Shown one piece after another: positions 9,258 to 20,126 of a DNA stretch of 32,000 bases. The notes beneath the pieces are model-generated. The model was not told where the DNA came from and did not search any database. It saw only the letters and a list, made by a program, of their open reading frames with translations. The DNA lies in contig JAUWGH010000004.1 of NCBI GenBank assembly GCA_030606485.1, positions 60,001-92,000 on the forward strand. The letters are read 5' to 3'. This DNA is from Promethearchaeota archaeon (lineage in GTDB: Archaea; Asgardarchaeota; Lokiarchaeia; Sigyniarchaeales; SOKP01). A program made the translations under genes and the position numbers. Every line of letters begins with the position of its first letter. The stretch's first letter is position 1.

Positions 9258-10469
9258 ATGATTTATATGGAATTTCAACAGCCTATTATAAGAAAGGTTG
9301 ATTCCTTTAATTTTGATTCCTATCAAGATAGAAGGTTGAAAGCTTTTTTGAATGCAGGTATTAAAAATGCTTTTCCATCCAAAGAAGGTATTAATATTCC
9401 GAAAAAGGGAGATTCCGATGAATTTTTAGCGGATTTATTAAATATTTTGAATATTAAGACATTGGTGGTAGGAGTGGGAGGAGCTGGCAATAACACGGTA
9501 TCTCGATTGCAAGAGGGAGGTATTATTGGAGCTGAAACATTAAACATAAATACAGACGCTCAAGACTTGTATTATTCACATGCTAATTCAAAATTATTAA
9601 TTGGAAAAGAAATTTCCAAAGGGTTGGGGTCAGGAAATAATCCTGAAATAGGAAAGGAATCTGCTGAATGTGATGTTAAAAGAATTAGAGAATTCATGGA
9701 TGCAGATGTAGTATTTTTAACGTGCGGCTTAGGAGGAGGAACCGGAACTGGTGCTACTCCTATTATTGCAAGAGAAGCAAAAAGAGCAGGTGCCGTCGTT
9801 GTTACTTTCTGCACATTACCGTTTGGTATGGAGGGGGAAAAAAGGAGCTTGCGTGCGAATAGTGCATTAAAAGAATTAGCACAATATTCGGATTCGTTAA
9901 TTCCCATTCCAAACGATCGTCTATTTAAGTTAGACCAAAACATTTCAATGATGACTGGATTTAAGATAATGGATGAAGTTCTTGTCAGAAGTTGCAGATC
10001 TTTGGTTGGTCTTATAAATAATTGTGGAATGGTTAATTTAGATTATGCTGATGTGAAAAATGTTCTTAGAAAAACTGGGAAATATCCATCAGGAATTATT
10101 GGAATTGCTGAATCAGTTGGAGATAAAAATGATCTTATAAATAAAACAAAATTGGCTATTAACAATCCACTTTTAGAGCCGGATACAAAAAAAATTGATC
10201 AGTGCATAGTTTCAATATCTGGAGACCATGATATTCCATTATCAAAAATAGACAGCGTAGTATCCACTGTTTCAAATGAGATTTCCAGAGATGCCGATTT
10301 AAAGTTTGGAGCAATGATTGACCCAACTTTAGGAAATAAAACACAAATTTTATTCCTTGGGAAAGGCCCGATTTCACCCTTATTACTTAAAGCGCTTAAT
10401 TCGGAGGAAGGAAGGAAGGATATTGAAGAAGATATGGGTTATAGAAATGTAATTAATCGCCTTTTTTGA
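9258..10469 (+). CDS. ftsZ: FtsZ-family GTPase, FtsZ1-like N-terminal domain with divergent C-terminal domain
   Basis: GVGGAGNN, NTDAQDL, GLGGGTGTG tubulin signature, PFxxEGxKR, T7 loop VNLDYADV. Confidence 0.93.
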   Translation: MIYMEFQQPIIRKVDSFNFDSYQDRRLKAFLNAGIKNAFPSKEGINIPKKGDSDEFLADLLNILNIKTLVVGVGGAGNNTVSRLQEGGIIGAETLNINTDAQDLYYSHANSKLLIGKEISKGLGSGNNPEIGKESAECDVKRIREFMDADVVFLTCGLGGGTGTGATPIIAREAKRAGAVVVTFCTLPFGMEGEKRSLRANSALKELAQYSDSLIPIPNDRLFKLDQNISMMTGFKIMDEVLVRSCRSLVGLINNCGMVNLDYADVKNVLRKTGKYPSGIIGIAESVGDKNDLINKTKLAINNPLLEPDTKKIDQCIVSISGDHDIPLSKIDSVVSTVSNEISRDADLKFGAMIDPTLGNKTQILFLGKGPISPLLLKALNSEEGRKDIEEDMGYRNVINRLF

Positions 10470-10591
10470 TTAATTACATCCTTTTAATTTTAAGTTGAGG
10501 ATTATTTATTTTAATAATTCATATCATAGGACAAGATATTTTAAAATTATTCATTAAAGCAATTTTATATTAGATATAAAATTATGCTTTC

Positions 10592-11224
10592 TTGATGATA
10601 AATCAACTCGACATCAAAACTATTGTTTTTGATTTAGGTGGTGTATTATTCACATCGGGGACAACATTAGCTATAAAAAAAATTGCAACTAATTATGGAA
10701 TAAATTATAGGAAAGTCGCAGAAATATTTCTTGATAAAACTCATAAATTGGGCTACAAATTAAGGAGCGGAACGATCTCCATGGAAGAGTTCTTAGATAA
10801 TGCAATTGAAAAACTAGAATTAGAAGATAATGATAAAGAACACATAAAAAATATTTGGTTTAATTCTTATATTCCTCATTTTGGAATGCTCGAATTAATA
10901 AAAAATTTGAAGAAAAATTATAGATTAGTAATTTTCAGTGGTAATGTTAAGGCGAGGATAGATTTTCTTAATAAAAGGTATGATTTTCTGAAATATTTTG
11001 ACGATTATGTTTTTAGTTATATTTATCATCATAATAAAAAAGAAATAGAATTTTATAATGAATTGCTAAATCATCTCGATTGTGAGCCAAATCAATCTTT
11101 ATTAATTGATGATAGTAGTAAGGCTGTTAAAACTGCCCGATCTCTTAATCTAAATGCAATAATTTTTTATTATCCTGAGAAGTTAATTAAAGATTTAAAA
11201 AATTTTAATATTAAAATAAATTAA
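10592..11224 (+). CDS. HAD-superfamily hydrolase/phosphatase
   Basis: Motif I FDLGGV, motif II FSGN, motif IV LIDDS. Confidence 0.88.
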   Translation: MMINQLDIKTIVFDLGGVLFTSGTTLAIKKIATNYGINYRKVAEIFLDKTHKLGYKLRSGTISMEEFLDNAIEKLELEDNDKEHIKNIWFNSYIPHFGMLELIKNLKKNYRLVIFSGNVKARIDFLNKRYDFLKYFDDYVFSYIYHHNKKEIEFYNELLNHLDCEPNQSLLIDDSSKAVKTARSLNLNAIIFYYPEKLIKDLKNFNIKIN

Positions 11225-11238
11225 CGAGAGGGAATGCT

Positions 11239-11439
11239 ATTCCGAAGCAATGTAAATGGTATAATTGCTGTCCATTGAAATATTTTTATGAACAGGGCAA
11301 GCTAGAAGAGAGATGGGTTAGGGATTATTGTTGGATAGGTAATAAAAATTGCATAAGATATCAAAAGGAAGAAGCTGGAATACCTCATCTGGATAATATG
11401 TTGCCTGATGGAAGCATTAGAGAGGATTTAAAATATTAA
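11239..11439 (+). CDS. Unannotated 66-aa Cys-rich microprotein, probable ATT start
   Basis: Open frame IPKQCKWYNCCPLKYFYEQGKLEERWVRDYCWIGNKNCIRYQKEEAGIPHLDNMLPDGSIREDLKY*; no in-frame ATG/GTG/TTG upstream of the Cys motif; AGAGGGA 5 nt upstream of ATT; GC higher than in true intergenic DNA. Confidence 0.75.
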   Translation: MPKQCKWYNCCPLKYFYEQGKLEERWVRDYCWIGNKNCIRYQKEEAGIPHLDNMLPDGSIREDLKY

Positions 11440-12108
11440 AGTGCTCCCAACTTTTATTTCTACAAAATTATTGGGAAAATTTCTCCTAATTTTATTAGTT
11501 TTTGATGTGCAATGGCAGGGAGCAATTAAATCGATCCCTTCCAAGGCGTATAACTTATCGAATCCGTGAAAACCACCCAATACAGCGCGGATTTTTCCTA
11601 ACTCCTTTGCATTTTCTATTATATTTTCTAATCCCGGGTGGGCACATCCCGTAATTATCACAATTCCTTTTTCCGACTTTAAAAATAAAGAGATTTCGGG
11701 TATTCCTGTTCCCAATTCTTTTGAGCAGTAAATATTGTCTTCAATCTCAGTTATATCTTTTATTCCATAAACTTTAACATCGGATGGCATTTGATTTGAC
11801 ATATAATTTTTTTTTGAATATGCAAGATAAAGTTCGATTTTAGGATTTATTGTAACAAGACTCATTAAACCCCCAGCATGGTCCATATGCGTATGAGAAA
11901 TAATTACTTTTTTAATACCTTCAACTTTGATATTAAATTTATTAAGATTATGTGCCAATTTGGGAAAACCTGCGCCTGTGTCAAATAGTAGAATATTATT
12001 TGAATAATTATTCATAATAATTGCTCCAAATCCCCATCCGGATTGGAATCCAGGGAGGGCATTATTATCGAAGACTATTTTTACTTCAAAATTATGTTTA
12101 TTTTTCAT
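11428..12108 (-). CDS. Metallo-beta-lactamase-fold hydrolase
   Basis: LFDTG, SHTHMDHAGG (HxHxDH), GCAHPG, GGFH, CHCT. Confidence 0.9.
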   Translation of the reverse strand: MKNKHNFEVKIVFDNNALPGFQSGWGFGAIIMNNYSNNILLFDTGAGFPKLAHNLNKFNIKVEGIKKVIISHTHMDHAGGLMSLVTINPKIELYLAYSKKNYMSNQMPSDVKVYGIKDITEIEDNIYCSKELGTGIPEISLFLKSEKGIVIITGCAHPGLENIIENAKELGKIRAVLGGFHGFDKLYALEGIDLIAPCHCTSKTNKIRRNFPNNFVEIKVGSTLIF

Positions 12109-12198
12109 GAGATTATACCAATATCTTAAAAGAGATATGATTTAAAAAAATTATGGAGCTTTATGATAAGAAAGAGAAGTGAAATGATTACATATAGA

Positions 12199-15117
12199 TT
12201 AAGATTTTTTGATTAAATCAATACAATATTCTAAAATAGCAGTTTCTTTTATTGTTTTATCGGGAATTAATCCTTGTCCGTAATTTATTTTTCCTCCGCC
12301 TTTCCCTCCAAAATTTTGGACACAAGTCTTTATTATTTTGCCCATATTGACATTGGATTTTTGAGAAGCTTCTGATCCTAATAACCCTAATAAAATTATT
12401 CCTTGCTTTTCTTTACTGGTAAAAACTGTAATTGACTCGGAGGCTTTCCTAAAAATTTTAATTGACAAATTCTTCATATCATTCTGGTTAATACCATCGA
12501 ATGAGTAAGTAATGATCTTTAATTCTCCAAATTGTTTTGCTTCCCCAATATATTTATCTATTGCGTTATCCGCAAAAATATTATTTATTTTTTCTAATTT
12601 TTGTTTACTTTCTTCCCATTCGCTGTAGAATTTTTTAACTCTTTCTACGATAAGTTCAATTTGTGAATTTAGAATTTTGGCAACCTCTTCCAAGATATCT
12701 CCTTTTTTTTCTTCAGTGGAAGTTAATACTAGATCCTCTGGATTAATTTGACCTGAAGTAAGAGATTTTCTGGTTGATTTCCATTTTTTTATTAATTCTT
12801 GTACTCTGGCGGGTATTTGCGATGTGGATACATGTAATACATCTTCTAATTCTTGAATTATATTTTTATATGTCAGTTTTAATTGTTTTGTTGCCTCGCC
12901 AGCCGTGAATGTTATTCTGACAATACCATCTTGTATTTTTTGAGATTTTAAAATTTTTATTTCACCTGCTTCTCCTGTTCTATTTAAATGAGTTCCACCA
13001 CACGCTTCGACTTCTAAATCAGGTATTTCAACAATTCTAATCAGTTTACCGGGAACTGCACCACCTTGATAGATGCTCATTCCATATTTTTTTTCTGCTT
13101 CAGAGCGGGGCATAAAGGATAGATTTGTTTTTAAATTCTTTTTAACAATTTCATTTGATAATGCTTCAATTTTTTTAAGATCTTCATCAGAAATTGCATT
13201 AAAATGAGTTACATCGAGATGGGCTTTTTCTTGAGATTTTTTTGCGCCTGCTTGGTTGATATGAGCCCCCAAGACTTCTCTTGTTGCGGCATTTATAATG
13301 TGGGTTGTAGTGTGATGTTGTGCTATTTGTTTTCGCCAATTTTTATCAACGATAATATCAACTATATCACCTTCTTTAAATTTAGGAGGTTTATCCATTA
13401 CGTGAATAACATATTTTCCTTCTTTAATGACGTTAGAGAATTTTTCTCCACTAATTGTCCCAATATCATGTAATTGACCACCAGAAGTTGGGTATGCCAC
13501 AGATTTATCAAGAATCACGTATTTATCTATTATTTTTAATACTTTTGCTTTATTAGAATAATCTTCATAATTATCAAAATAAAGTGATTGGGTTTCAGGT
13601 ATATTACTTAAATCAATATCGAGCTCTTTCTGAGTAGCGTAAACTTGTTCCTTTTTCTCGTGTAATGCAACGACTCTACTATAGAAATCATCGGGAATCC
13701 TAACTTCTACGCCTAATTTTTTTGCCTCTTCCACGACTATATCAGGGTTGATACCATTAGAATCATATAACGTAAGTAGGGTTTTTTCTGAAATTTTTCC
13801 TTTTTTAATTTCATTTTTAACGATTTTACCCGCATTCTTTTTAGTTTGATAATATTTCTCTTTTTCTACATTCAGTATTTGCCTTAACTCATCCAAATGT
13901 TCGCTTACCTCTGGGAATAATTCTCTTAATTCATCAGCATGCCAATCACATACATCTGCAATTTCAATATCCCAATTAAATTGGTCTATAAAAGAAATCG
14001 CTCTTCTAAAAATTACCCTTAAATTATAACCTCCACCTACATTTGAAGGTAATTTTCCATCATTAATTGCAAATAATAAAGTTCTTGCATGTTCTGCGAT
14101 AGAATATAAGCCTGCCATTGGCATAATTTTTTTTTCTAATTCCACAATATCCATATTTAATTCTTGAGCGACTCGTCCCCACGCCTTATCCATATCATCA
14201 ACTTCATCTATATTTAAATACGCAGAATATTGAGAGAATTTATTATATAATTCTAAATCTAATTCAATATTTGTTTTTTCTCTTAATTTTGATAAAACAT
14301 ACGGAAATGTAGCTTCATACATATTTGGAGTGCCTTGTGAGAACCAAGCTACACGCTCCTGGCCAAGACCCATATCTAAAACTTTTAATGGAAGTTCGCG
14401 AGAGCCTTCCAGTGTCTGTTCGAACATAGTATATACTTGATTGAATAATTCAACCCCTCTACTAAAAAATTCAAGACTACAACCGTAGGAACCTCCTCCA
14501 GCCCAACTATCCTCATGAATAGTAAGCTCATGTTTTGAAACCCCTACTCCTTTAGTAATAAAATCATACATGTCAAGAAAATATTCACCTTGTTTCCATT
14601 CTTCTGGTTTCACAAATGTATGCTGTCCAATCATTATGAAGCCACAACAGTGCGAGCCCGTCAAGCCTACATTCTCGATGTCGTTGAATCTCAAGCAAAA
14701 CTGAGGGATAATTAATTTTTTAGCTGGTGGCTCTATTTCACCCGTTATTACATACGGTTGAAATGCAGAAATTGAAGCAATAGTAAATTCAGTAGTCGGA
14801 TTCCATCTTGCAACGCAGGGATACCGATTTATTGGTTTATATCCTCGAGGTTCTAAAATTTCTACAATTTTTTTCCAAACACCGATAAAGGATAGTTTGA
14901 CTTTAGAGGGATTATCTTCAACAACTTGAAAACCTCCTGAACAAGTAGGGCTTCCGCATACTTCTCTATCTTCATGAGTAGTCCAAAAATAAGTTCCACA
15001 TTTGCACAGTTTCCTAATAAAACCCTTATTTCTTAATTCATTAGTAGGAAAATATTTATCTGGATCAGCAGATGCAATTTTTCTGAAGACTTCCTTCTGT
15101 TCCTTGTCAGAGAGCAT
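12199..15117 (-). CDS. alaS: Alanyl-tRNA synthetase, archaeal type
   Basis: N-terminal CKC…FWT…C…C, RYPxVARW, IASIxAFQP, DMGLGQER, YPTSGGQLHD, editing HHTTTH and CGGTH, C-terminal GGKGGG. Confidence 0.97.
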   Translation of the reverse strand: MLSDKEQKEVFRKIASADPDKYFPTNELRNKGFIRKLCKCGTYFWTTHEDREVCGSPTCSGGFQVVEDNPSKVKLSFIGVWKKIVEILEPRGYKPINRYPCVARWNPTTEFTIASISAFQPYVITGEIEPPAKKLIIPQFCLRFNDIENVGLTGSHCCGFIMIGQHTFVKPEEWKQGEYFLDMYDFITKGVGVSKHELTIHEDSWAGGGSYGCSLEFFSRGVELFNQVYTMFEQTLEGSRELPLKVLDMGLGQERVAWFSQGTPNMYEATFPYVLSKLREKTNIELDLELYNKFSQYSAYLNIDEVDDMDKAWGRVAQELNMDIVELEKKIMPMAGLYSIAEHARTLLFAINDGKLPSNVGGGYNLRVIFRRAISFIDQFNWDIEIADVCDWHADELRELFPEVSEHLDELRQILNVEKEKYYQTKKNAGKIVKNEIKKGKISEKTLLTLYDSNGINPDIVVEEAKKLGVEVRIPDDFYSRVVALHEKKEQVYATQKELDIDLSNIPETQSLYFDNYEDYSNKAKVLKIIDKYVILDKSVAYPTSGGQLHDIGTISGEKFSNVIKEGKYVIHVMDKPPKFKEGDIVDIIVDKNWRKQIAQHHTTTHIINAATREVLGAHINQAGAKKSQEKAHLDVTHFNAISDEDLKKIEALSNEIVKKNLKTNLSFMPRSEAEKKYGMSIYQGGAVPGKLIRIVEIPDLEVEACGGTHLNRTGEAGEIKILKSQKIQDGIVRITFTAGEATKQLKLTYKNIIQELEDVLHVSTSQIPARVQELIKKWKSTRKSLTSGQINPEDLVLTSTEEKKGDILEEVAKILNSQIELIVERVKKFYSEWEESKQKLEKINNIFADNAIDKYIGEAKQFGELKIITYSFDGINQNDMKNLSIKIFRKASESITVFTSKEKQGIILLGLLGSEASQKSNVNMGKIIKTCVQNFGGKGGGKINYGQGLIPDKTIKETAILEYCIDLIKKS

Positions 15118-15147
15118 ATTATAATATATTTAAATTTCTAACAATGA

Positions 15148-15153
15148 TATAAA
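15148..15153 (-). promoter_or_regulatory. Candidate TATA box (TTTATA) for alaS
   Basis: About 31 nt upstream of the ATG with no SD, consistent with a leaderless or short-leader transcript. Confidence 0.4.
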
Positions 15154-15203
15154 CTAGCCTATTTTTATATTATTAAGGAATCCTTAATTATTTTTTTATT
15201 ATC

Positions 15204-15242
15204 GAGAAAAAAATAAAAAATATTAAATTGTAAAGGATGTTG
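15204..15242 (+). repeat. Direct repeat copy 1 (39 bp)
   Basis: GAGAAAAAAATAAAAAATATTAAATTGTAAAGGATGTTG; matches 16314-16351 with 2 mismatches and 1 indel. Confidence 0.8.
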
Positions 15243-15431
15243 TAAAGGTTTGTTATTCTTAAAATAAATATTTACTTTCATATCTTTATTTAAAATAATA
15301 AATACTTATTAAAAAGATTTTGAACAATTTATAGAACTAAAGAATAATCTTTTTTAACATAAATGATTTAATTAAGTTTACTTTTAATCTAAAAACAACC
15401 TAATTTAATAAAATAATAAAAGGTATTAAAA

Positions 15432-15965
15432 ATGGGAAAATCATCAGGTGTGGCATTAGCCATTATTAGTTTACTTATTGGAGCAGGAGGATTAGGTATT
15501 GGCGTGTATTGTTACTTAACATTTGGCGAGAGGATTGCCGAGTTAGAGGGTGAGTTAGAAGATAGGTCTATTAAAGGAACATGGTACGCAGAACTTTTGG
15601 AAGATTTTAAGCCAACCGTCACAAATACAAACGAAACGATACCTGGTCTTACCATTAGTTTTCAAGTAAAAGAAGGCGAATCTGTTTATTTTTTATTTAT
15701 ATCTAGAGCAATTATTTATAAATATTCTGTTGAATCTTATTTACGTTTTACTTTCAGCATCGATGGCATAATTTTACATGCGCCCTATACCATAGCGGGG
15801 GGTCGCAATATAGACGAGACTTGGTTATATTTTCCTGTTGCTCTTCAATACTCAACAGATACTTTAGCAGCAGGTAACCATACAGTCTCTGTTATCGCAT
15901 TGCAAAGTTATAGTTTTAATTTTATTCGCCAAAGTACATTTTTAGTTCAAACGTACATTCCATAG
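15432..15965 (+). CDS. Hypothetical N-terminally membrane-anchored protein with beta-rich C-terminal domain
   Basis: Gly-rich TM segment VALAIISLLIGAGGLGIGVYCYL, short heptad-like ERIAELEGELEDR, then alternating hydrophobic beta-strands. Confidence 0.8.
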   Translation: MGKSSGVALAIISLLIGAGGLGIGVYCYLTFGERIAELEGELEDRSIKGTWYAELLEDFKPTVTNTNETIPGLTISFQVKEGESVYFLFISRAIIYKYSVESYLRFTFSIDGIILHAPYTIAGGRNIDETWLYFPVALQYSTDTLAAGNHTVSVIALQSYSFNFIRQSTFLVQTYIP

Positions 15966-15988
15966 AATTGAAGAAATCTTAATTAACC

Positions 15989-15997
15989 TTTTTTTTT
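15989..15997 (+). terminator. Oligo-T archaeal terminator candidate
   Basis: T9 run about 24 nt after the stop of 15432..15965. Confidence 0.4.
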
Positions 15998-16079
15998 ATT
16001 TTATATAAATCCGTTCATTTTTAACTTGCAATCAAAACCAACGTATTTATTATTTTCTTTTAAAAAAATCAATGAATTA

Positions 16080-16310
16080 GGTTATCCCTACATTTTCAAT
16101 ATCATTAAATCTTAAGAAATATTAAAGGAGAAGTAACTTTTTTTTCGGGATATTCTACTCTCCAGAAAAAATATAAGGTTGAAAAGCGGAGATTGAAGCA
16201 ATTTTAAATTCAATCGTTGGATTCCATCTTGCAACACATAGATAACGGTTTATTGGTTTATATCCTCGAGGTTCTAAAATTTCTACGTTTTTTTTCTAAA
16301 TACGGATAAA
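16080..16310 (-). pseudogene. Decayed alaS fragment (codons 77-153), colinear with 14659-14889
   Basis: Translates FIRI*KKNVEILEPRGYKPINRYLCVARWNPTIEFKIASISAFQPYIFSGE*NIPKKKLLLL*YFLRFNDIENVGIT; 56/77 codons encode the same residue as intact alaS; no indels; three stops. Confidence 0.92.
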
Positions 16311-16313
16311 TGA

Positions 16314-16351
16314 GAGAAAAAAATAAAAATTATTAAATTTTAAGGATGTTG
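16314..16351 (+). repeat. Direct repeat copy 2 (38 bp)
   Basis: GAGAAAAAAATAAAAATTATTAAATTTTAAGGATGTTG; begins 3 nt after the alaS relic and ends 35 nt before the ftcD ATG. Confidence 0.8.
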
Positions 16352-16386
16352 AGATACATTAAAGAAATAATTTGGGAGGAATAAAA

Positions 16387-17304
16387 ATGGGAAAAAAAAA
16401 AAAGAAAATTGTTGAGTCAATACCTAATTTTAGTGAAGGGACTGAAAGTGATAAAGTTGAGGCGATAGTTTCTGAAATCAGAAATACTCATGAGACTCGT
16501 ATTGTTGATGTTCAATATGATTCTGATTATAATCGAGCAGTAATAACATTTGTTGGAACTCCAGAAGCAGTGCTTAACGCGAATATTGCTGCTGCTAAAA
16601 AAGCTATTGAATTGATTGATATGAATAAACATAAGGGACAACACCCTCGAATAGGTGCAGTTGATGTTTGTCCGTTTGTACCTGCTCAAAATGTTACTAT
16701 TGAAGAATGTAAAGACTTAGCAATAAAGTTTGCTGAAGCAATGACAAAAGAAGGAGTCCCAGTTTATCTTTATGAAGAATCCGCTACTAAACCAGAGAGG
16801 AGAAATATTGATAATATCCGCATAGGTGAATTTGAGGGTTTGAAAGATACAATAAAAACGAACCCCGAACATAAACCAGATTATGGACCTTCTAAATTCC
16901 ATCCTACTGCTGGAGCAACAATTACAGGTGCCAGATATCCTTTAATTAGTTTTAATATTAATCTTGGAACAACAGATGTTAAAATAGCAAAGAAGGTTGC
17001 AAAACGGATTCATCAACGCTCAGGAGGACTCGTAAATGTTAAAGCAATGGGAACGGAATTAAAAGGAAGAGATTGCGTTCAAGTTGGGATTAGTAACATT
17101 AATTTTAAAAAAACACCAATCTATCGACAGATGGAACTCGTTAAAATCGAAGCAGCGCGATACGGAGTTCCAGTGATCGGTTCAGAATTAGTTGGTGTTC
17201 TCCCCATAGATGCAGTGCTTAACTCGTTGGAGTACTATTTACAACTCGAATCTCCCAAGAAGCTTGAGCAGAAGCATTTATTAGAGTATTATTTTGATTT
17301 TTAA
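16387..17304 (+). CDS. ftcD: Glutamate formiminotransferase (stand-alone FT domain)
   Basis: ESIPNFSEG, DYNRAV, HKGQHPRIGAVDVCPFVP, PVYLYE, TITGARYPLISFN; ATG 16387 follows a GGAGG SD; no cyclodeaminase domain. Confidence 0.93.
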   Translation: MGKKKKKIVESIPNFSEGTESDKVEAIVSEIRNTHETRIVDVQYDSDYNRAVITFVGTPEAVLNANIAAAKKAIELIDMNKHKGQHPRIGAVDVCPFVPAQNVTIEECKDLAIKFAEAMTKEGVPVYLYEESATKPERRNIDNIRIGEFEGLKDTIKTNPEHKPDYGPSKFHPTAGATITGARYPLISFNINLGTTDVKIAKKVAKRIHQRSGGLVNVKAMGTELKGRDCVQVGISNINFKKTPIYRQMELVKIEAARYGVPVIGSELVGVLPIDAVLNSLEYYLQLESPKKLEQKHLLEYYFDF

Positions 17305-17319
17305 CATTAATAAATACAA

Positions 17320-18588
17320 CTAATTCTGTGCAACGATTTTTCCATTTTTAATGACTGTTGAAACGAGATTGATCCCAAATTGGTAACCCAAGAATTGATA
17401 ATTGGGTACATTAAACATTACTAAATCTGCTTTCTTTCCAACCTCAATGCTGCCAATCTTATCTTGCCGCTGTAGGGCGCATGCAGCATTAATTGTTGCA
17501 GCAGTCAGAGCTTCTGCAGGTGAAAGTTTCATATTATAACAAGCTAACACAATTATCATTTGCATTGACTCTGTCCAGCAATTAGGGTTTAGATCAGTTG
17601 CAAGTGCCACAGGAACACCAAATTCAATCATCTTTCTAGCAGGAGCATAATCTTTTAACATTAAACAGAATGGTGTGCCTGGTAATAGAGTAGCAATAAC
17701 TCCCGCTTTTGCCATTGCTTTTAAACCCTCATCATTTGATTTTAGTAAATGTCCTGCTTGAACTGCGTTTATTTTTGCTGCCAATATAGCTCCATTCGTA
17801 TCCACAATTTCATCTATATGAATTTGAGGTTTTATTCCATATCTTTTTGCAGCATTTATTATTTTCTGAGTTTGTTCGGTTGAAAATATCCCCTCTTCAC
17901 AGAATACATCACAGAACTCTGCTAAACCCTCACTAGCAATTTTGGGGATCATTTCTGAAATTATTAAATTAACATAATCATCCGTTCTCCCTTTGTATTC
18001 TGGTGGTATTGCGTGTGCACCTAAAAAGGTTGAAACAACATCTAATGGGTGGTCTTTGTTAAGGATGTTCGCCGCTTTTAATGACTTAATTTCACTATCA
18101 AGTGATAGACCATAGCCAGATTTCGTTTCAACCGTTGTTGTACCATAATTCATCATCCTATCTAAGATTTTTTTGCCGTTTTCAACTAATTTTTCAAGAG
18201 AGGCTCTTCTGGTCTCTCGAACAGTTTTTAGTATTCCACCTCCTGCTTCGAGAATCTCGAGATACGTTTTTCCAGCAAGTTTCATTGATAATTCATTTTC
18301 TCTTGAACCATCAAATATGATATGGGTATGTGGGTCTATAAATCCAGGAGTAACTAACTTGTTAGTGGCGTCGATCTTATTTTTTATTTGATCGTAAGCG
18401 ACTTTAGACATTAGATCTTCGGTAGTTCCAACAAATATGATTTTGTCATCTTTTACTGCTACCGCACCATCAAGAATAATTGCCAACTCTCCCATTTTTT
18501 CACCGATTCTAGGTACACCAAATTTTGAGTCAATAGTAACAAGTTGATTTGCATGGACAATCGCGAGATCTGGTTCATCATTCTTCAT
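17320..18588 (-). CDS. hutI: Imidazolonepropionase
   Basis: PGFIDPHTH, GTTTVETKSGYGL, FLGAHAIP, DVFCEEG, ALATDLNP. Confidence 0.95.
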   Translation of the reverse strand: MKNDEPDLAIVHANQLVTIDSKFGVPRIGEKMGELAIILDGAVAVKDDKIIFVGTTEDLMSKVAYDQIKNKIDATNKLVTPGFIDPHTHIIFDGSRENELSMKLAGKTYLEILEAGGGILKTVRETRRASLEKLVENGKKILDRMMNYGTTTVETKSGYGLSLDSEIKSLKAANILNKDHPLDVVSTFLGAHAIPPEYKGRTDDYVNLIISEMIPKIASEGLAEFCDVFCEEGIFSTEQTQKIINAAKRYGIKPQIHIDEIVDTNGAILAAKINAVQAGHLLKSNDEGLKAMAKAGVIATLLPGTPFCLMLKDYAPARKMIEFGVPVALATDLNPNCWTESMQMIIVLACYNMKLSPAEALTAATINAACALQRQDKIGSIEVGKKADLVMFNVPNYQFLGYQFGINLVSTVIKNGKIVAQN

Positions 18589-18599
18589 AATTGGCAGCC

Positions 18600-20126
18600 C
18601 TATTGATTGTTTATTTTTAATAATTCATTGCTTTTAATAATTTCTATTGCTGCTTCTATAAAATCAGAAAGGATTGTATCTTCTGTTAAATGGGGTATTT
18701 TCTTACGTATATATTCATGGCAAGCTTCTAGTATCTTGCTTGATTTTAGAGGTCTTCTAAAATCAAAAGCTTGCGCTGCGCATAAGAGTTCTATTGCAAG
18801 AATCTTTTCAACATTTTCAATTATTTGAAGCGTTTTTCTAGCACTAATAGCCCCCATACTTACATGATCTTCTTGACCCATAGATGTAGGGATACTATCA
18901 GCACTAGCAGGAAAGCAAAGCGATTTATTTTCACTTGCAAGAGCCGCTGAAGAATATTGAACCATCATAAATCCAGAGTTTAAACCAGATTCCTTAATCA
19001 AATAAGGGGGTAATCCCCATTTTCCTCCCAAAAGAAGATACGTTCGCCGGTCAGAGATGTTTCCAAGTTCAGAAGCTGCTAAACCTGCATAATCTAAAGG
19101 TAATGCAAGTGGTTGTCCATGAAAATTTCCACCGCTAATAGTATCCTCTTCATTAAAAATAATAGGGTTATCGGTAATGGAATTTAATTCACATTCCAAT
19201 TTTTCATTCAAATGCGATAAAGCATCCCTAGATGCACCATGAACTTGTGGCATACACCGAAGAGAATATGGATCTTGAACACGTTCACATTTTTTATGAG
19301 ATTCTACAAATTCGGAATTCTCAAGAAATTTCCTTATTCTCTTAGCCACTATTTTAGCACCTTGATGTGGTCTTAATTCAATTAATCTCTCATCAAAAGG
19401 TTGGGGTGAACCTAAATAGCTTTCAAGACTGAGAGCACCAATTATATCCGCGTGATCTAAGCAATTTTTTAATTTTTCTGATACCTTTATAGCATGAGCT
19501 GCTATAAATTGCGTACCATTAATTAATGCTAAACTTTCTTTTGGGCTAAGTTTTAATGGGGGAATTTGATGTTGATTTAATATTTTCTCAGTTGGAATAA
19601 ATGATTTCCCATCGGTTGATAGATATCCTAAACCAATTAATGGTAAAAATAAATGAGCTAAAGGTGCGAGATCTCCCGACGCCCCAACCGAACCTTGTTC
19701 AGGAACTAATGGTATATAATTTTTCTCAATATGCCAGAGTATTCTCTCAAGTATTTGTAATGATATTCCAGAATAGCCTTTACTTAATACATGCACCTTG
19801 AGAATAAGCATTAATTTTGAGATTTCTTGCTCTATTGGTGAGCCAACACCAACACTATGACTCTTAAGAATATTCTCTTGTAATTTAAAAGTATCTTCTT
19901 TGGAAATTCTAGTTCTACATAAAGAGCCAATTCCAGTGTTAATACTATATACAAGTTTATCACCCTGAGCAATAGATTGAACAATCTCATAACTTTTTAA
20001 TATTTTAGTTTTAACCTCATCTGTTAATATCCCTTTTATCTGGTCCCTTGCCAGTTTCAGCGCTTTTTCAATGGTAAGCTGATCTAAACCATATTTAAAA
20101 TTGTCTTTCATATTCTCCTGTTTCAA
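18600..20126 (-). CDS. hutH: Histidine ammonia-lyase
   Basis: MIO tripeptide ASG in GSVGASGDLAPL, LKSH, LINGTQ, QDPYSLRCMPQVHG, SGGNFHG, QEDHVSMG. Confidence 0.96.
   Translation of the reverse strand: MKQENMKDNFKYGLDQLTIEKALKLARDQIKGILTDEVKTKILKSYEIVQSIAQGDKLVYSINTGIGSLCRTRISKEDTFKLQENILKSHSVGVGSPIEQEISKLMLILKVHVLSKGYSGISLQILERILWHIEKNYIPLVPEQGSVGASGDLAPLAHLFLPLIGLGYLSTDGKSFIPTEKILNQHQIPPLKLSPKESLALINGTQFIAAHAIKVSEKLKNCLDHADIIGALSLESYLGSPQPFDERLIELRPHQGAKIVAKRIRKFLENSEFVESHKKCERVQDPYSLRCMPQVHGASRDALSHLNEKLECELNSITDNPIIFNEEDTISGGNFHGQPLALPLDYAGLAASELGNISDRRTYLLLGGKWGLPPYLIKESGLNSGFMMVQYSSAALASENKSLCFPASADSIPTSMGQEDHVSMGAISARKTLQIIENVEKILAIELLCAAQAFDFRRPLKSSKILEACHEYIRKKIPHLTEDTILSDFIEAAIEIIKSNELLKINNQ

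What the first reader, a model, noticed from the sequence alone, without database searches (positions are those of the whole stretch)
14659..16351. Hidden second alaS allele and direct repeats bracket a cargo gene: footprint of a gene-restoring integration or allele swap
Seen: 16080-16310 is an indel-free copy of alaS codons 77-153 (14659-14889) with three stops. Of 56 codons keeping the same amino acid, 21 differ synonymously, about equal to the 21 amino-acid-changing codons. Simple neutral decay of a fresh duplicate would give far fewer synonymous than replacement changes. Right after the relic sits a 38-bp copy of the noncoding 15204-15242 segment, with about 314 nt (codons 1-76 and the promoter) missing. 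The layout is alaS5'-X-[membrane gene]-alaS5'relic-X'-ftcD. Inference: a circle carrying a foreign alaS 5' end, X and cargo recombined into alaS near codon 153, restored the essential gene as a chimera and displaced the resident 5' end. Alternatively, X is an att-like core. No integrase is present, so this may be a trans-mobilised or recombination-driven cargo route using an essential aaRS gene as its landing pad.
Basis: partly seen in the sequence, partly recalled or inferred. Interest (0 to 1): 0.78.

Follow-up and report, generated by a model that had tools for sequence, protein, structure and literature searches.

The report
Old gene insertion beside alaS, with stump
In an Asgard (Loki-type) archaeon, a surface-protein gene taken from another genus was inserted next to the essential alanyl-tRNA synthetase gene and left a dead copy of that gene's front end, and other genera carry the same scar at the same place.

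Summary
Window 16080-16310 is a stop-ridden copy of alaS codons 77-153 with no net indel: 174/231 nt identical, 35 identical, 21 synonymous and 21 replacement or stop codons, dN/dS 0.14. It is followed by X', a second copy of the 38-nt segment X.

It is a real insertion. Same-genus genome G001 has the empty alaS-X-ftcD site. Contigs from at least four independent metagenome studies cover every junction. A lineage about 9% diverged has the same layout.

The cargo, 15302-16042, is a single-gene cassette encoding a membrane-anchored TNF/C1q-like protein. It is 84-86% identical to a peptidase-ORF-moeA locus of another genus, so it arrived by horizontal transfer.

The relic has decayed neutrally since that lineage split. 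No integrase, tRNA gene or precise att core is present.

The layout native upstream, alaS 5' relic, cargo, intact alaS recurs in three other genomes of two genera. Their relics end at codons 145, 152 and 161. In one of them (G059) the relic is the resident allele and the working 5' end is foreign.

Best reading: integrase-free, homology-anchored insertion that restored alaS. For this genome, an in-situ duplication followed by allele turnover is not excluded.

The parts
12199..15117 (-). Intact alaS (alanyl-tRNA synthetase, 972 aa)
   Evidence: ORF; Pfam tRNA-synt_2c 1.5e-78, tRNA_SAD and DHHA1; 91-92% nt identity to alaS of G001 and L087.
14659..14889 (-). alaS codons 77-153, the segment duplicated in the relic
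14634..14755 (-). Divergent patch of the working alaS (about codons 121-165). It is shared by the insert-bearing lineages G000 and L087 and is 72-80% identical to empty-site G001, against a gene mean of 91%.
   Evidence: Sliding-window identities.
14828..14865 (.). 38-nt stretch identical to 16249-16286 in the relic
   Evidence: Logan contigs (k=31) break here in all four runs.
15118..15203 (-). 86 nt upstream of alaS (presumed alaS promoter), absent from the relic copy
   Evidence: The promoter role is inferred.
15204..15242 (.). X, the outer end of the duplicated segment. G001 and G003 have a single copy that abuts the ftcD leader.
15243..15301 (.). 59-nt filler of unknown origin between X and the cassette
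   Evidence: No match outside this locus; 98% conserved in L087.
15292..15305 (.). Left arm of a 14-nt perfect inverted repeat that hugs the cassette (partner at 16043-16056)
   Evidence: 1 of 5000 random sequence pairs of local base composition reached 14 nt (0.0002). It is not a genome-wide repeat.
15302..16042 (+). Single-gene cassette acquired horizontally. It is 84-86% identical to a peptidase S9 - ORF173 - moeA locus of genus g2 (L090, L092, G118).
   Evidence: The flanks of that locus have no DNA match in G000, G001, G002 or G003.
15432..15965 (+). ORF177 cargo protein: N-terminal membrane helix, helical stalk, and a TNF/C1q-like jelly-roll domain
   Evidence: No Pfam, PHROG, NCBIfam or PADLOC hit. 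AlphaFold pLDDT 89. Foldseek matches the BC2L-C N-terminal lectin and the TNF-like lectin PLTL with target-normalised TM 0.66-0.75. Intact in all lineages; dN/dS 0.47 against L087.
16043..16079 (.). 37-nt filler. Its first 14 nt are the right arm of the inverted repeat.
16080..16313 (-). alaS relic (codons 153 down to 77) with three stops, decaying neutrally
   Evidence: Since the split from L087, its changes are spread evenly over codon positions.
16314..16351 (.). X', the second copy of X, in the native position next to ftcD (probable ftcD promoter region)
   Evidence: The promoter role is inferred from its position 36-73 nt upstream of the ftcD ATG.
16387..17304 (+). ftcD (glutamate formiminotransferase), first gene of the native flank. 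The ORF listing starts it at TTG 16372; other assemblies call ATG 16387.

Best explanation
This is an old, fixed scar of an integrase-free insertion that kept alaS working.

Shown:
- A stretch of about 1.07 kb (15243-16313) lies between alaS and ftcD and is absent from a same-genus genome.
- It holds a 741-bp single-gene cassette taken from another genus, two short fillers, and a dead copy of alaS codons 77-153 that abuts a second copy of X.
- The event predates a lineage split of about 9% nucleotide divergence, and the relic has drifted neutrally since.
- The same native upstream - alaS 5' relic - cargo - intact alaS layout arose in other genera, with relic ends at codons 145, 152 and 161.
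- In G059 the relic is the resident allele and the working 5' end is foreign.

Inferred mechanism:
- Incoming DNA carried the cargo together with an alaS 5' end and its promoter.
- It recombined by homology inside alaS just 3' of codon 153-165.
- Its other end was joined illegitimately, by microhomology with fillers, to the resident gene at codon 153.
- This left the resident codons 1-153, their promoter and X' as a stump beside ftcD.
- A later 314-bp deletion removed the stump's start codon and promoter but spared X', which ftcD needs as its own promoter.

Whether the incoming DNA was linear or a circle is open.
For: - Empty site: window 12000-15242 and 16314-18998 are contiguous in G001 through one copy of X, with an intact 976-aa alaS reading frame.
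- The layout is real and widespread: contigs of runs from four studies cover every junction, and there are seven further contigs.
- Age: L087-L089, 91% identical over 14400-16700, have the same relic, the same gap, X and X'.
- Branch test: since the split, relic changes fall 3/5/3 and 7/4/3 over codon positions, which is neutral. The functional branches fall 1/0/10 and 0/0/10. The ancestral relic against the ancestral functional copy falls 10/9/26, so part of that divergence arose between selected alleles.
- Foreign DNA was involved: the cassette is 84-86% identical to a genus-g2 locus whose flanks have no DNA match in this genus.
- The working alaS of both insert-bearing lineages shares a divergent patch at codons 121-165, next to the relic's end.
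- Recurrence: G059, G148 and G106. Empty sites exist for G148 in G149, G146, G147 and G150, and for G059 in G090 and G102.
- G059: the relic plus its upstream DNA is 87-90% identical to G090's native alaS 5' region, while the working codons 1-100 are only 57-81% identical to the relic, G090 or G102.
- ileS control: none of the 150 best matches listed in the same 135 genomes carries a stop; 192 weaker matches were not listed.
- No recombinase, tRNA gene or Rfam family is present.
Against: - In this genome the working codons 1-120, the 86-nt upstream and X are 93-97% identical to the empty-site genomes, so they are not visibly foreign.
- At the 18 sites where G000 and L087 agree and differ from G001, the ancestral relic sides 6:6:6 with G001, with G000/L087 or with neither.
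- Relic codons 77-122 look like this genus (84-93%), and no donor lineage could be named for codons 123-153.
- alaS alleles in the genus are heavily mosaic (75-99% per 100 nt). L087's codons 1-60 were replaced after the insertion. Later allele turnover could therefore also create the synonymous divergence.
- The fillers, the 14-nt inverted repeat and the non-contiguous local copies (S2', X') also fit a template-switching event.
- The relic ends differ by up to 16 codons, so there is no single fixed site.
Confidence: 0.5

Rival explanations
1. In-situ complex rearrangement. One replication or repair accident (template switching, or joining of two differently broken chromosome copies) captured the foreign cassette and copied local alaS codons 77-153 and X beside it. 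The two alaS copies were identical at first. The synonymous differences arose later, when homologous recombination with congeners replaced parts of the working allele.
For: - Both duplicated pieces are local, and relic codons 77-122 look like this genus.
- There are short fillers and a 14-nt inverted repeat at the cassette borders.
- The junction of relic and X' lies in a GAG/AG microhomology (read).
- alaS is strongly mosaic, and a 5' allele replacement after the insertion is documented in L087.
- The relic is equidistant from the G000 and G001 alleles.
- A similar gene - cargo - 5' stump layout exists at a GH106 rhamnosidase gene in the same genome.
Against: - It does not explain G059, where the working codons 1-60 are only 57-69% identical to the relic. 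That is too far apart for later homologous replacement, and the upstream DNA is also different.
- It does not explain why four independent relics end within 16 codons of one another.
- The ancestral relic already differed from the working allele mainly at third positions.
Confidence: 0.3
2. Remnant of a site-specific integrative element. X and X' are the att core repeats left by a tyrosine or serine recombinase that acted in trans or was later lost, and the alaS fragment is passenger DNA.
For: A 38-nt direct repeat brackets the insert exactly as judged against the empty site. Empty sites exist.
Against: - No recombinase lies in or near the insert, nor in the G059 or G148 cargo, according to Pfam, PHROGs, NCBIfam and PADLOC.
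- X is only the outer end of a longer interrupted duplication that also includes codons 77-153.
- No short repeat like X was noticed at the cargo ends of G059 or G148, though this was not specifically searched.
- The cargo is an ordinary chromosomal gene with its intergenic flanks.
- There is no tRNA gene.
Confidence: 0.07
3. Assembly artefact: the relic and the insert are a chimera made by a metagenome assembler.
For: The genome is a metagenome assembly of 13 contigs. The related G003 contig may itself be chimeric at the 38-nt repeat.
Against: Independent contigs from runs of four studies cover each junction. Seven contigs from other assemblies, L087-L089 and L140 show the same order.
Confidence: 0.01

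Closest known systems
Genomic islands and prophages that integrate into the end of a conserved gene and carry a replacement end (tRNA or tmRNA 3' ends; dusA 5' end with DusA-specific integrases; SSV-type elements in archaea). Cited from my own knowledge.
   Same: Cargo lies between an intact gene and a displaced fragment of the same gene. Empty sites exist in relatives. The target is a conserved housekeeping gene, and the site is used repeatedly.
   Different: No integrase and no exact att core. The relic ends vary (codons 145-161). The duplicated stretch is 230-480 nt of diverged sequence, not a short identical core. The cargo is an ordinary cellular gene.
Campbell-type single-crossover integration of a circle that carries a gene fragment (insertion-duplication), as known from laboratory genetics. 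Cited from my own knowledge.
   Same: The product order is truncated copy - insert - complete copy, and the gene stays functional if the fragment includes the promoter and 5' end.
   Different: No circle was seen. The divergent patch in the working gene extends past the relic's end. The relic has an internal 314-nt gap. The junctions carry fillers.
Homology-facilitated illegitimate recombination (one homologous anchor plus a microhomology join), described in naturally transformable bacteria such as Acinetobacter and Streptococcus pneumoniae. Cited from my own knowledge.
   Same: Foreign DNA is gained next to a homologous anchor, one junction is illegitimate with microhomology or filler, and no dedicated recombinase is needed.
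   Different: As far as I know it has not been described in Asgard archaea. Here it would have to recur at one region of one gene. The mechanism is inferred, not observed.
Microhomology-mediated template switching (FoSTeS/MMBIR) complex rearrangements. Cited from my own knowledge.
   Same: Several short, non-contiguous templated pieces (X', codons 77-153, a 14-nt inverted copy) are joined with fillers.
   Different: The main inserted piece comes from another genus, and the G059 case shows a truly foreign 5' end.

Membership tests
Site-specific integrative element (recombinase-borne island) | A tyrosine or serine recombinase gene in or beside the insert | tested here: not met
   Pfam on all ORFs from 9258 to 20126. 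Pfam, PADLOC, PHROGs and NCBIfam on the G148 and G059 cargo. None found.
Site-specific integrative element (recombinase-borne island) | Short, identical att core repeats that are the only duplicated sequence at the two ends | tested here: not met
   X and X' match at 36 of 38 positions with one gap, and they are the outer part of a longer interrupted duplication that includes alaS codons 77-153.
Site-specific integrative element (recombinase-borne island) | Empty site in relatives | tested here: met
   G001 has alaS-X-ftcD with one X. The G003 contig also joins X to ftcD.
Site-specific integrative element (recombinase-borne island) | Excised circular form or precise excision junction | tested here: inconclusive
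   Only contigs could be laid, not raw reads, and none joined across the insert. That is no proof of absence.
Homology-driven gene-restoring insertion (Campbell-type or anchor plus illegitimate join) | A truncated and a complete copy of the same gene segment in direct orientation flank the insert, and the complete copy keeps its promoter | tested here: met
   G059, G148 and G106 show the same.
Homology-driven gene-restoring insertion (Campbell-type or anchor plus illegitimate join) | The truncated copy is the resident allele and the 5' end of the working copy is of outside origin | tested here: inconclusive
   Met in G059. Unresolved in this genome: site patterns split 6:6:6 and codons 1-120 are not visibly foreign. 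Only the patch at codons 121-165 is distinctive.
Class II alanyl-tRNA synthetase gene (for the relic's parent) | Match to the AlaRS catalytic, editing-domain and DHHA1 families | tested here: met
   Pfam PF01411 1.5e-78, PF07973 and PF02272. The relic segment matches at tblastn E=1e-33.
TNF/C1q-like jelly-roll lectin fold (for the cargo protein) | Structural match of a confident model to solved TNF-like or C1q-like domains | tested here: met
   Model pLDDT 89.3. Foldseek probability 1.0, target-normalised TM 0.66-0.75 to BC2L-C N-terminal domain and PLTL. Sugar binding and trimer formation were not tested.

The most novel reading that the evidence does not exclude
The alaS region around codons 145-161 is a recurrent break or recombination hotspot in these Asgard archaea and serves as an integrase-free landing pad for cargo genes. 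Once formed, the relic and the working gene act as built-in homology arms. These arms would let the whole cassette move into any related genome by ordinary homologous recombination. The hotspot may be set by a site-specific nuclease or by the gene's conservation profile.
Probability: 0.25. Interest if true: 0.7.

Novelty: new variant of a known kind. Interest (0 to 1): 0.5.

Why it matters
Gene gain in Asgard archaea is mostly inferred from gene trees, and few insertion scars have been worked out base by base. This one shows a dated, horizontally acquired single gene. Its junctions, empty site and neutral relic can all be read, and no recombinase is in sight. If the recurrence at one region of alaS holds up in a wider survey, it would point to a route for cassette gain and spread that depends on homology and not on mobile-element enzymes. 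That would bear on how these genomes collect accessory genes. If it does not hold up, the locus remains a well-documented but ordinary structural variant.

Tried and rejected
- **Donor of the relic.** The reconstructed ancestral relic was compared with about 50 working alaS alleles of 13 genera. Codons 123-153 are 65-75% identical to all of them, so no donor could be named.
- **Four-taxon site patterns** for X plus codons 1-99 (G000, L087, G001, G003) gave almost no informative sites.
- **Most conserved block as a crossover point.** The nucleotide conservation profile of codons 1-400 puts the best windows at codons 216-260. Codons 151-160 are rather variable. The idea is not supported.
- **RNA genes.** No tRNA gene and no Rfam family anywhere in the window.
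- **Cargo annotation.** PADLOC, PHROGs and NCBIfam gave nothing for ORF177 or the G148 cargo. The G059 radical-SAM cargo weakly resembles viperin models. The G148 540-aa protein looks like a HEAT/ARM solenoid.
- **TFIIB-like pieces.** Both lie just upstream of alaS in G059 and G148, but they show no mutual similarity at E<1e-3, so a common origin was dropped.
- **14-nt inverted repeat as a transposon end.** It occurs only four times in the genome. Rejected.
- **Laid contigs.** No contig joined across the insert and no circle junction was seen. These were contigs only, so this says nothing either way. Loose ends at 15228, 15304 and 16056 and a back-joint 15330>14550 could not be identified in any held sequence or in the JGI metagenome contigs.
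- **Second metagenome scan** with ORF177 found only one more copy of the same layout and one genus-g2 context.
- **Earlier notes of this scan** near the window did not bear on the finding.
- **G003.** Its contig joins ftcD-X-codons 1-99 of working type to codons 100-130 of relic type (93% to the ancestral relic, 72-75% to working alleles). I cannot tell whether this is a true recombinant or an assembly chimera at the 38-nt repeat.

Full report
**What is there**

The window is AT-rich (31% G+C). Its proteins have close relatives labelled Promethearchaeota, the Asgard/Loki-type archaea. DNA runs that hold the stretch are mostly from cold-seep, marine-sediment and subsurface metagenomes.

alaS is the 972-aa ORF at 12199-15117 on the minus strand. 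ftcD and the hut genes follow on the other side.

At a constant offset of 1421 nt, 16080-16310 repeats alaS codons 77-153.
- 174/231 nt are identical.
- 35 codons are identical, 21 synonymous, 18 replacement, and 3 are stops.
- Differences by codon position are 13/11/33, and NG86 dN/dS is 0.146/1.08.
- A 38-nt stretch is identical in both copies (14828-14865 = 16249-16286).
- The relic runs directly into X' (16314-16351), a copy of X (15204-15242). The 314 nt that separate these two pieces in the working gene are missing.

**It is a real insertion**

In the same-genus genome G001, window 12000-15242 and 16314-18998 are contiguous and overlap by a single X. G001 has an intact 976-aa alaS reading frame on a 272-kb contig. 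A small G003 contig also joins X to ftcD.

The unique part of the insert has no match in G001-G004.

The layout is not an assembly product.
- Runs from at least four independent studies hold most of the stretch.
- Their contigs cover the alaS-X-insert, insert-relic and relic-X'-ftcD junctions. They break only at the 38-nt repeat, as k=31 contigs should.
- Seven contigs from other assemblies carry the identical ORF177 in the same context.

**Age and mode of evolution**

A lineage 91% identical over 14400-16700 (L087-L089, with ORF177 88% identical in protein) has the same relic with the same 314-nt gap, and both X copies.

I used the two relics, and the relic-like part of G003, to reconstruct the relic at that split.
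- Later changes fall evenly on codon positions (3/5/3 and 7/4/3). The working copies changed almost only at third positions (1/0/10 and 0/0/10).
- The relic therefore drifts neutrally. It already carried two stops at the split.
- The ancestral relic differs from the ancestral working allele at 10/9/26 positions. About two thirds of that looks like decay. The rest is a third-position excess about as large as the difference between living congeners.

It does not say when or how the second allele arose.

**The cargo**

Window 15302-16042 (ORF177 with 130 nt upstream and 77 nt downstream) is 84-86% identical to a locus in genus g2. There a 173-aa orthologue sits between a peptidase S9 gene and moeA (L090, L092, G118). 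The flanks of that locus have no DNA match in G000, G001, G002 or G003.

Close homologues are very patchy: 5 of 161 genomes of the class. The cassette was therefore acquired horizontally as an ordinary chromosomal gene with its intergenic flanks.

It is bordered by fillers of 59 and 37 nt and by a 14-nt perfect inverted repeat (15292-15305 and 16043-16056). Only 1 of 5000 random sequence pairs of local base composition reached 14 nt (0.0002), and the repeat is not a repeat family.

ORF177 has no family in Pfam, PHROGs, NCBIfam or PADLOC. A confident model (pLDDT 89) shows a membrane helix, a helical stalk and a jelly roll that matches TNF-like lectins, with target-normalised TM 0.66-0.75. The gene stays intact across lineages in which the neighbouring relic gained stops. 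Its dN/dS is 0.47, against 0.12-0.13 for alaS and ftcD. It is probably a functional, fast-evolving surface protein.

**The same scar elsewhere**

A search of 135 genomes of the family found further stop-bearing or truncated alaS 5' copies next to alaS.
- **G059 (genus g11):** native GNAT/PNPOx flank - relic of codons 1-145 - radical-SAM gene - TFIIB-like fragment - alaS.
- **G148 (genus g3):** alaS - about 10 kb of cargo (a 1635-aa ORF, a PLD-like nuclease, a solenoid protein) - relic of codons 1-161 - native MoOx/PNPOx/FtsZ flank. Empty sites exist in four congeners.
- **G106 (genus g11):** a 60-nt relic that ends at about codon 152 lies 76 nt upstream of alaS.

The four relics end at codons 145, 152, 153 and 161. 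These are close together but not the same site.

An equivalent search with the ileS HIGH-motif region listed no stop-bearing copies among the 150 best matches; 192 weaker matches were not listed.

In G059 the relic plus its upstream DNA is 87-90% identical to the native alaS 5' region of G090. The working gene's first 100 codons are only 57-81% identical to the relic, G090 or G102. There the working 5' end came from outside and the resident one was displaced.

**What this means for the window**

The layout, the foreign cassette, the third-position excess and the G059 precedent favour this model: incoming DNA carried the cargo plus an alaS 5' end with its promoter, and it recombined inside alaS.

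A further hint comes from the two insert-bearing lineages. They share a working-gene patch at codons 121-165 that is only 72-80% identical to G001, against 91% for the whole gene. The patch passes the relic's end. That fits a homologous crossover 3' of codon 153 combined with an illegitimate join at codon 153 better than a single crossover within a 1-153 fragment.

The 314-nt gap removes the stump's start codon and the 86-nt alaS promoter region. It stops exactly at X', which lies 36-73 nt upstream of the ftcD start and is probably the ftcD promoter. I infer that selection silenced the stump while keeping ftcD expressed.

**What speaks against it**

- The working codons 1-120, the upstream DNA and X are 93-97% identical to the empty-site genomes.
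- At the 18 sites that separate the G000/L087 allele from G001, the ancestral relic sides 6:6:6.
- No donor could be named.
- alaS alleles in the genus are a mosaic, and L087's first 60 codons were replaced after the insertion.

An in-situ duplication during capture of the cassette, followed by allele turnover, therefore remains possible. I put it at about 0.3. The fillers and the inverted repeat fit that model as well.

A recombinase-borne element with X as its att core is unlikely. No recombinase is present here or in the other cargoes. X is only the outer end of a longer duplication. There is no tRNA gene.

**G003**

Its 3.9-kb contig reads ftcD - X - upstream - codons 1-99 of working type, then codons 100-130 of relic type. 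That last part is 93% identical to the ancestral relic and 72-75% to working alleles, and it breaks residues that are invariant in 30 AlaRS sequences. The contig then ends. This is either a recombinant in which an empty-type allele crossed into the relic at the 38-nt repeat, or an assembly chimera. Contigs cannot tell.

**Verdict**

The circle, the crossover at codon 153, the foreign origin of this genome's working 5' end, and X as an att core are not shown.

It is a new variant of known processes (gene-end-restoring integration, homology-anchored illegitimate recombination). It is of moderate interest, mainly because of the recurrence across genera and the clean, datable example of gene gain in Asgard archaea.

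Noticed in passing
L130:268-4958 (G000 contig C8:300267-304958): The same architecture at a non-essential gene. A GH106 rhamnosidase gene (minus strand) is followed by a divergent AAT-like acyltransferase gene and then by a 161-nt copy (77% identical) of the rhamnosidase codons 6-59, lying in a 63-aa ORF beside the next native gene.
   Followed up: partly
L079:1514-3394 and L080:3596-6274 (G066, complete genome): AlaRS residues 1-242 are fused in frame to a thiolase at the old alaS locus beside the GNAT gene. A divergent 892-aa AlaRS (62% identical) that lacks the N-terminal zinc-ribbon extension lies 1.3 Mb away. This looks like gene replacement that left a 5' stump.
   Followed up: partly
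window 15292-15305 and 16043-16056: A 14-nt perfect inverted repeat sits exactly at the borders of the acquired cassette. It is absent from the cassette's native locus in genus g2 and is not a repeat family in the genome. Its origin is unexplained.
   Followed up: partly
L076:1-160 (G148 contig C68 start): A repeat of about 160 nt, 98-100% identical, occurs at the ends of about 35 contigs of G148. It is probably an insertion sequence or MITE that breaks the assembly.
   Followed up: no
L019 (G015:C121:1980-2162) and G018:C126:3-185: Open frames of 77-82 aa with second matches (55-63% identical) to AlaRS residues 3-62, the zinc-ribbon extension. In G015 the frame lies 1.8 kb upstream of alaS. 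They may be small paralogues or further stumps.
   Followed up: no
L126:3637-4707 (G057): The radical-SAM gene that is cargo in G059 (90% identical) lies directly upstream of alaS in G057 with no relic. G059 also has a 94% identical second copy on another contig (L128).
   Followed up: partly
window 11428-12108: The metallo-beta-lactamase-fold gene downstream of alaS carries a precomputed hit to PF23023 (Anti-Pycsar Apyc1) in other assemblies of the same locus.
   Followed up: no
G099:C24:14397-14588 and G099:C146:81127-81204: In the ileS control search, one genome has an ileS 5' fragment in a 96-aa frame in the middle of one contig, while the main gene on another contig matches only from residue 52 of the query. 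This may be a split or a rearranged ileS.
   Followed up: no
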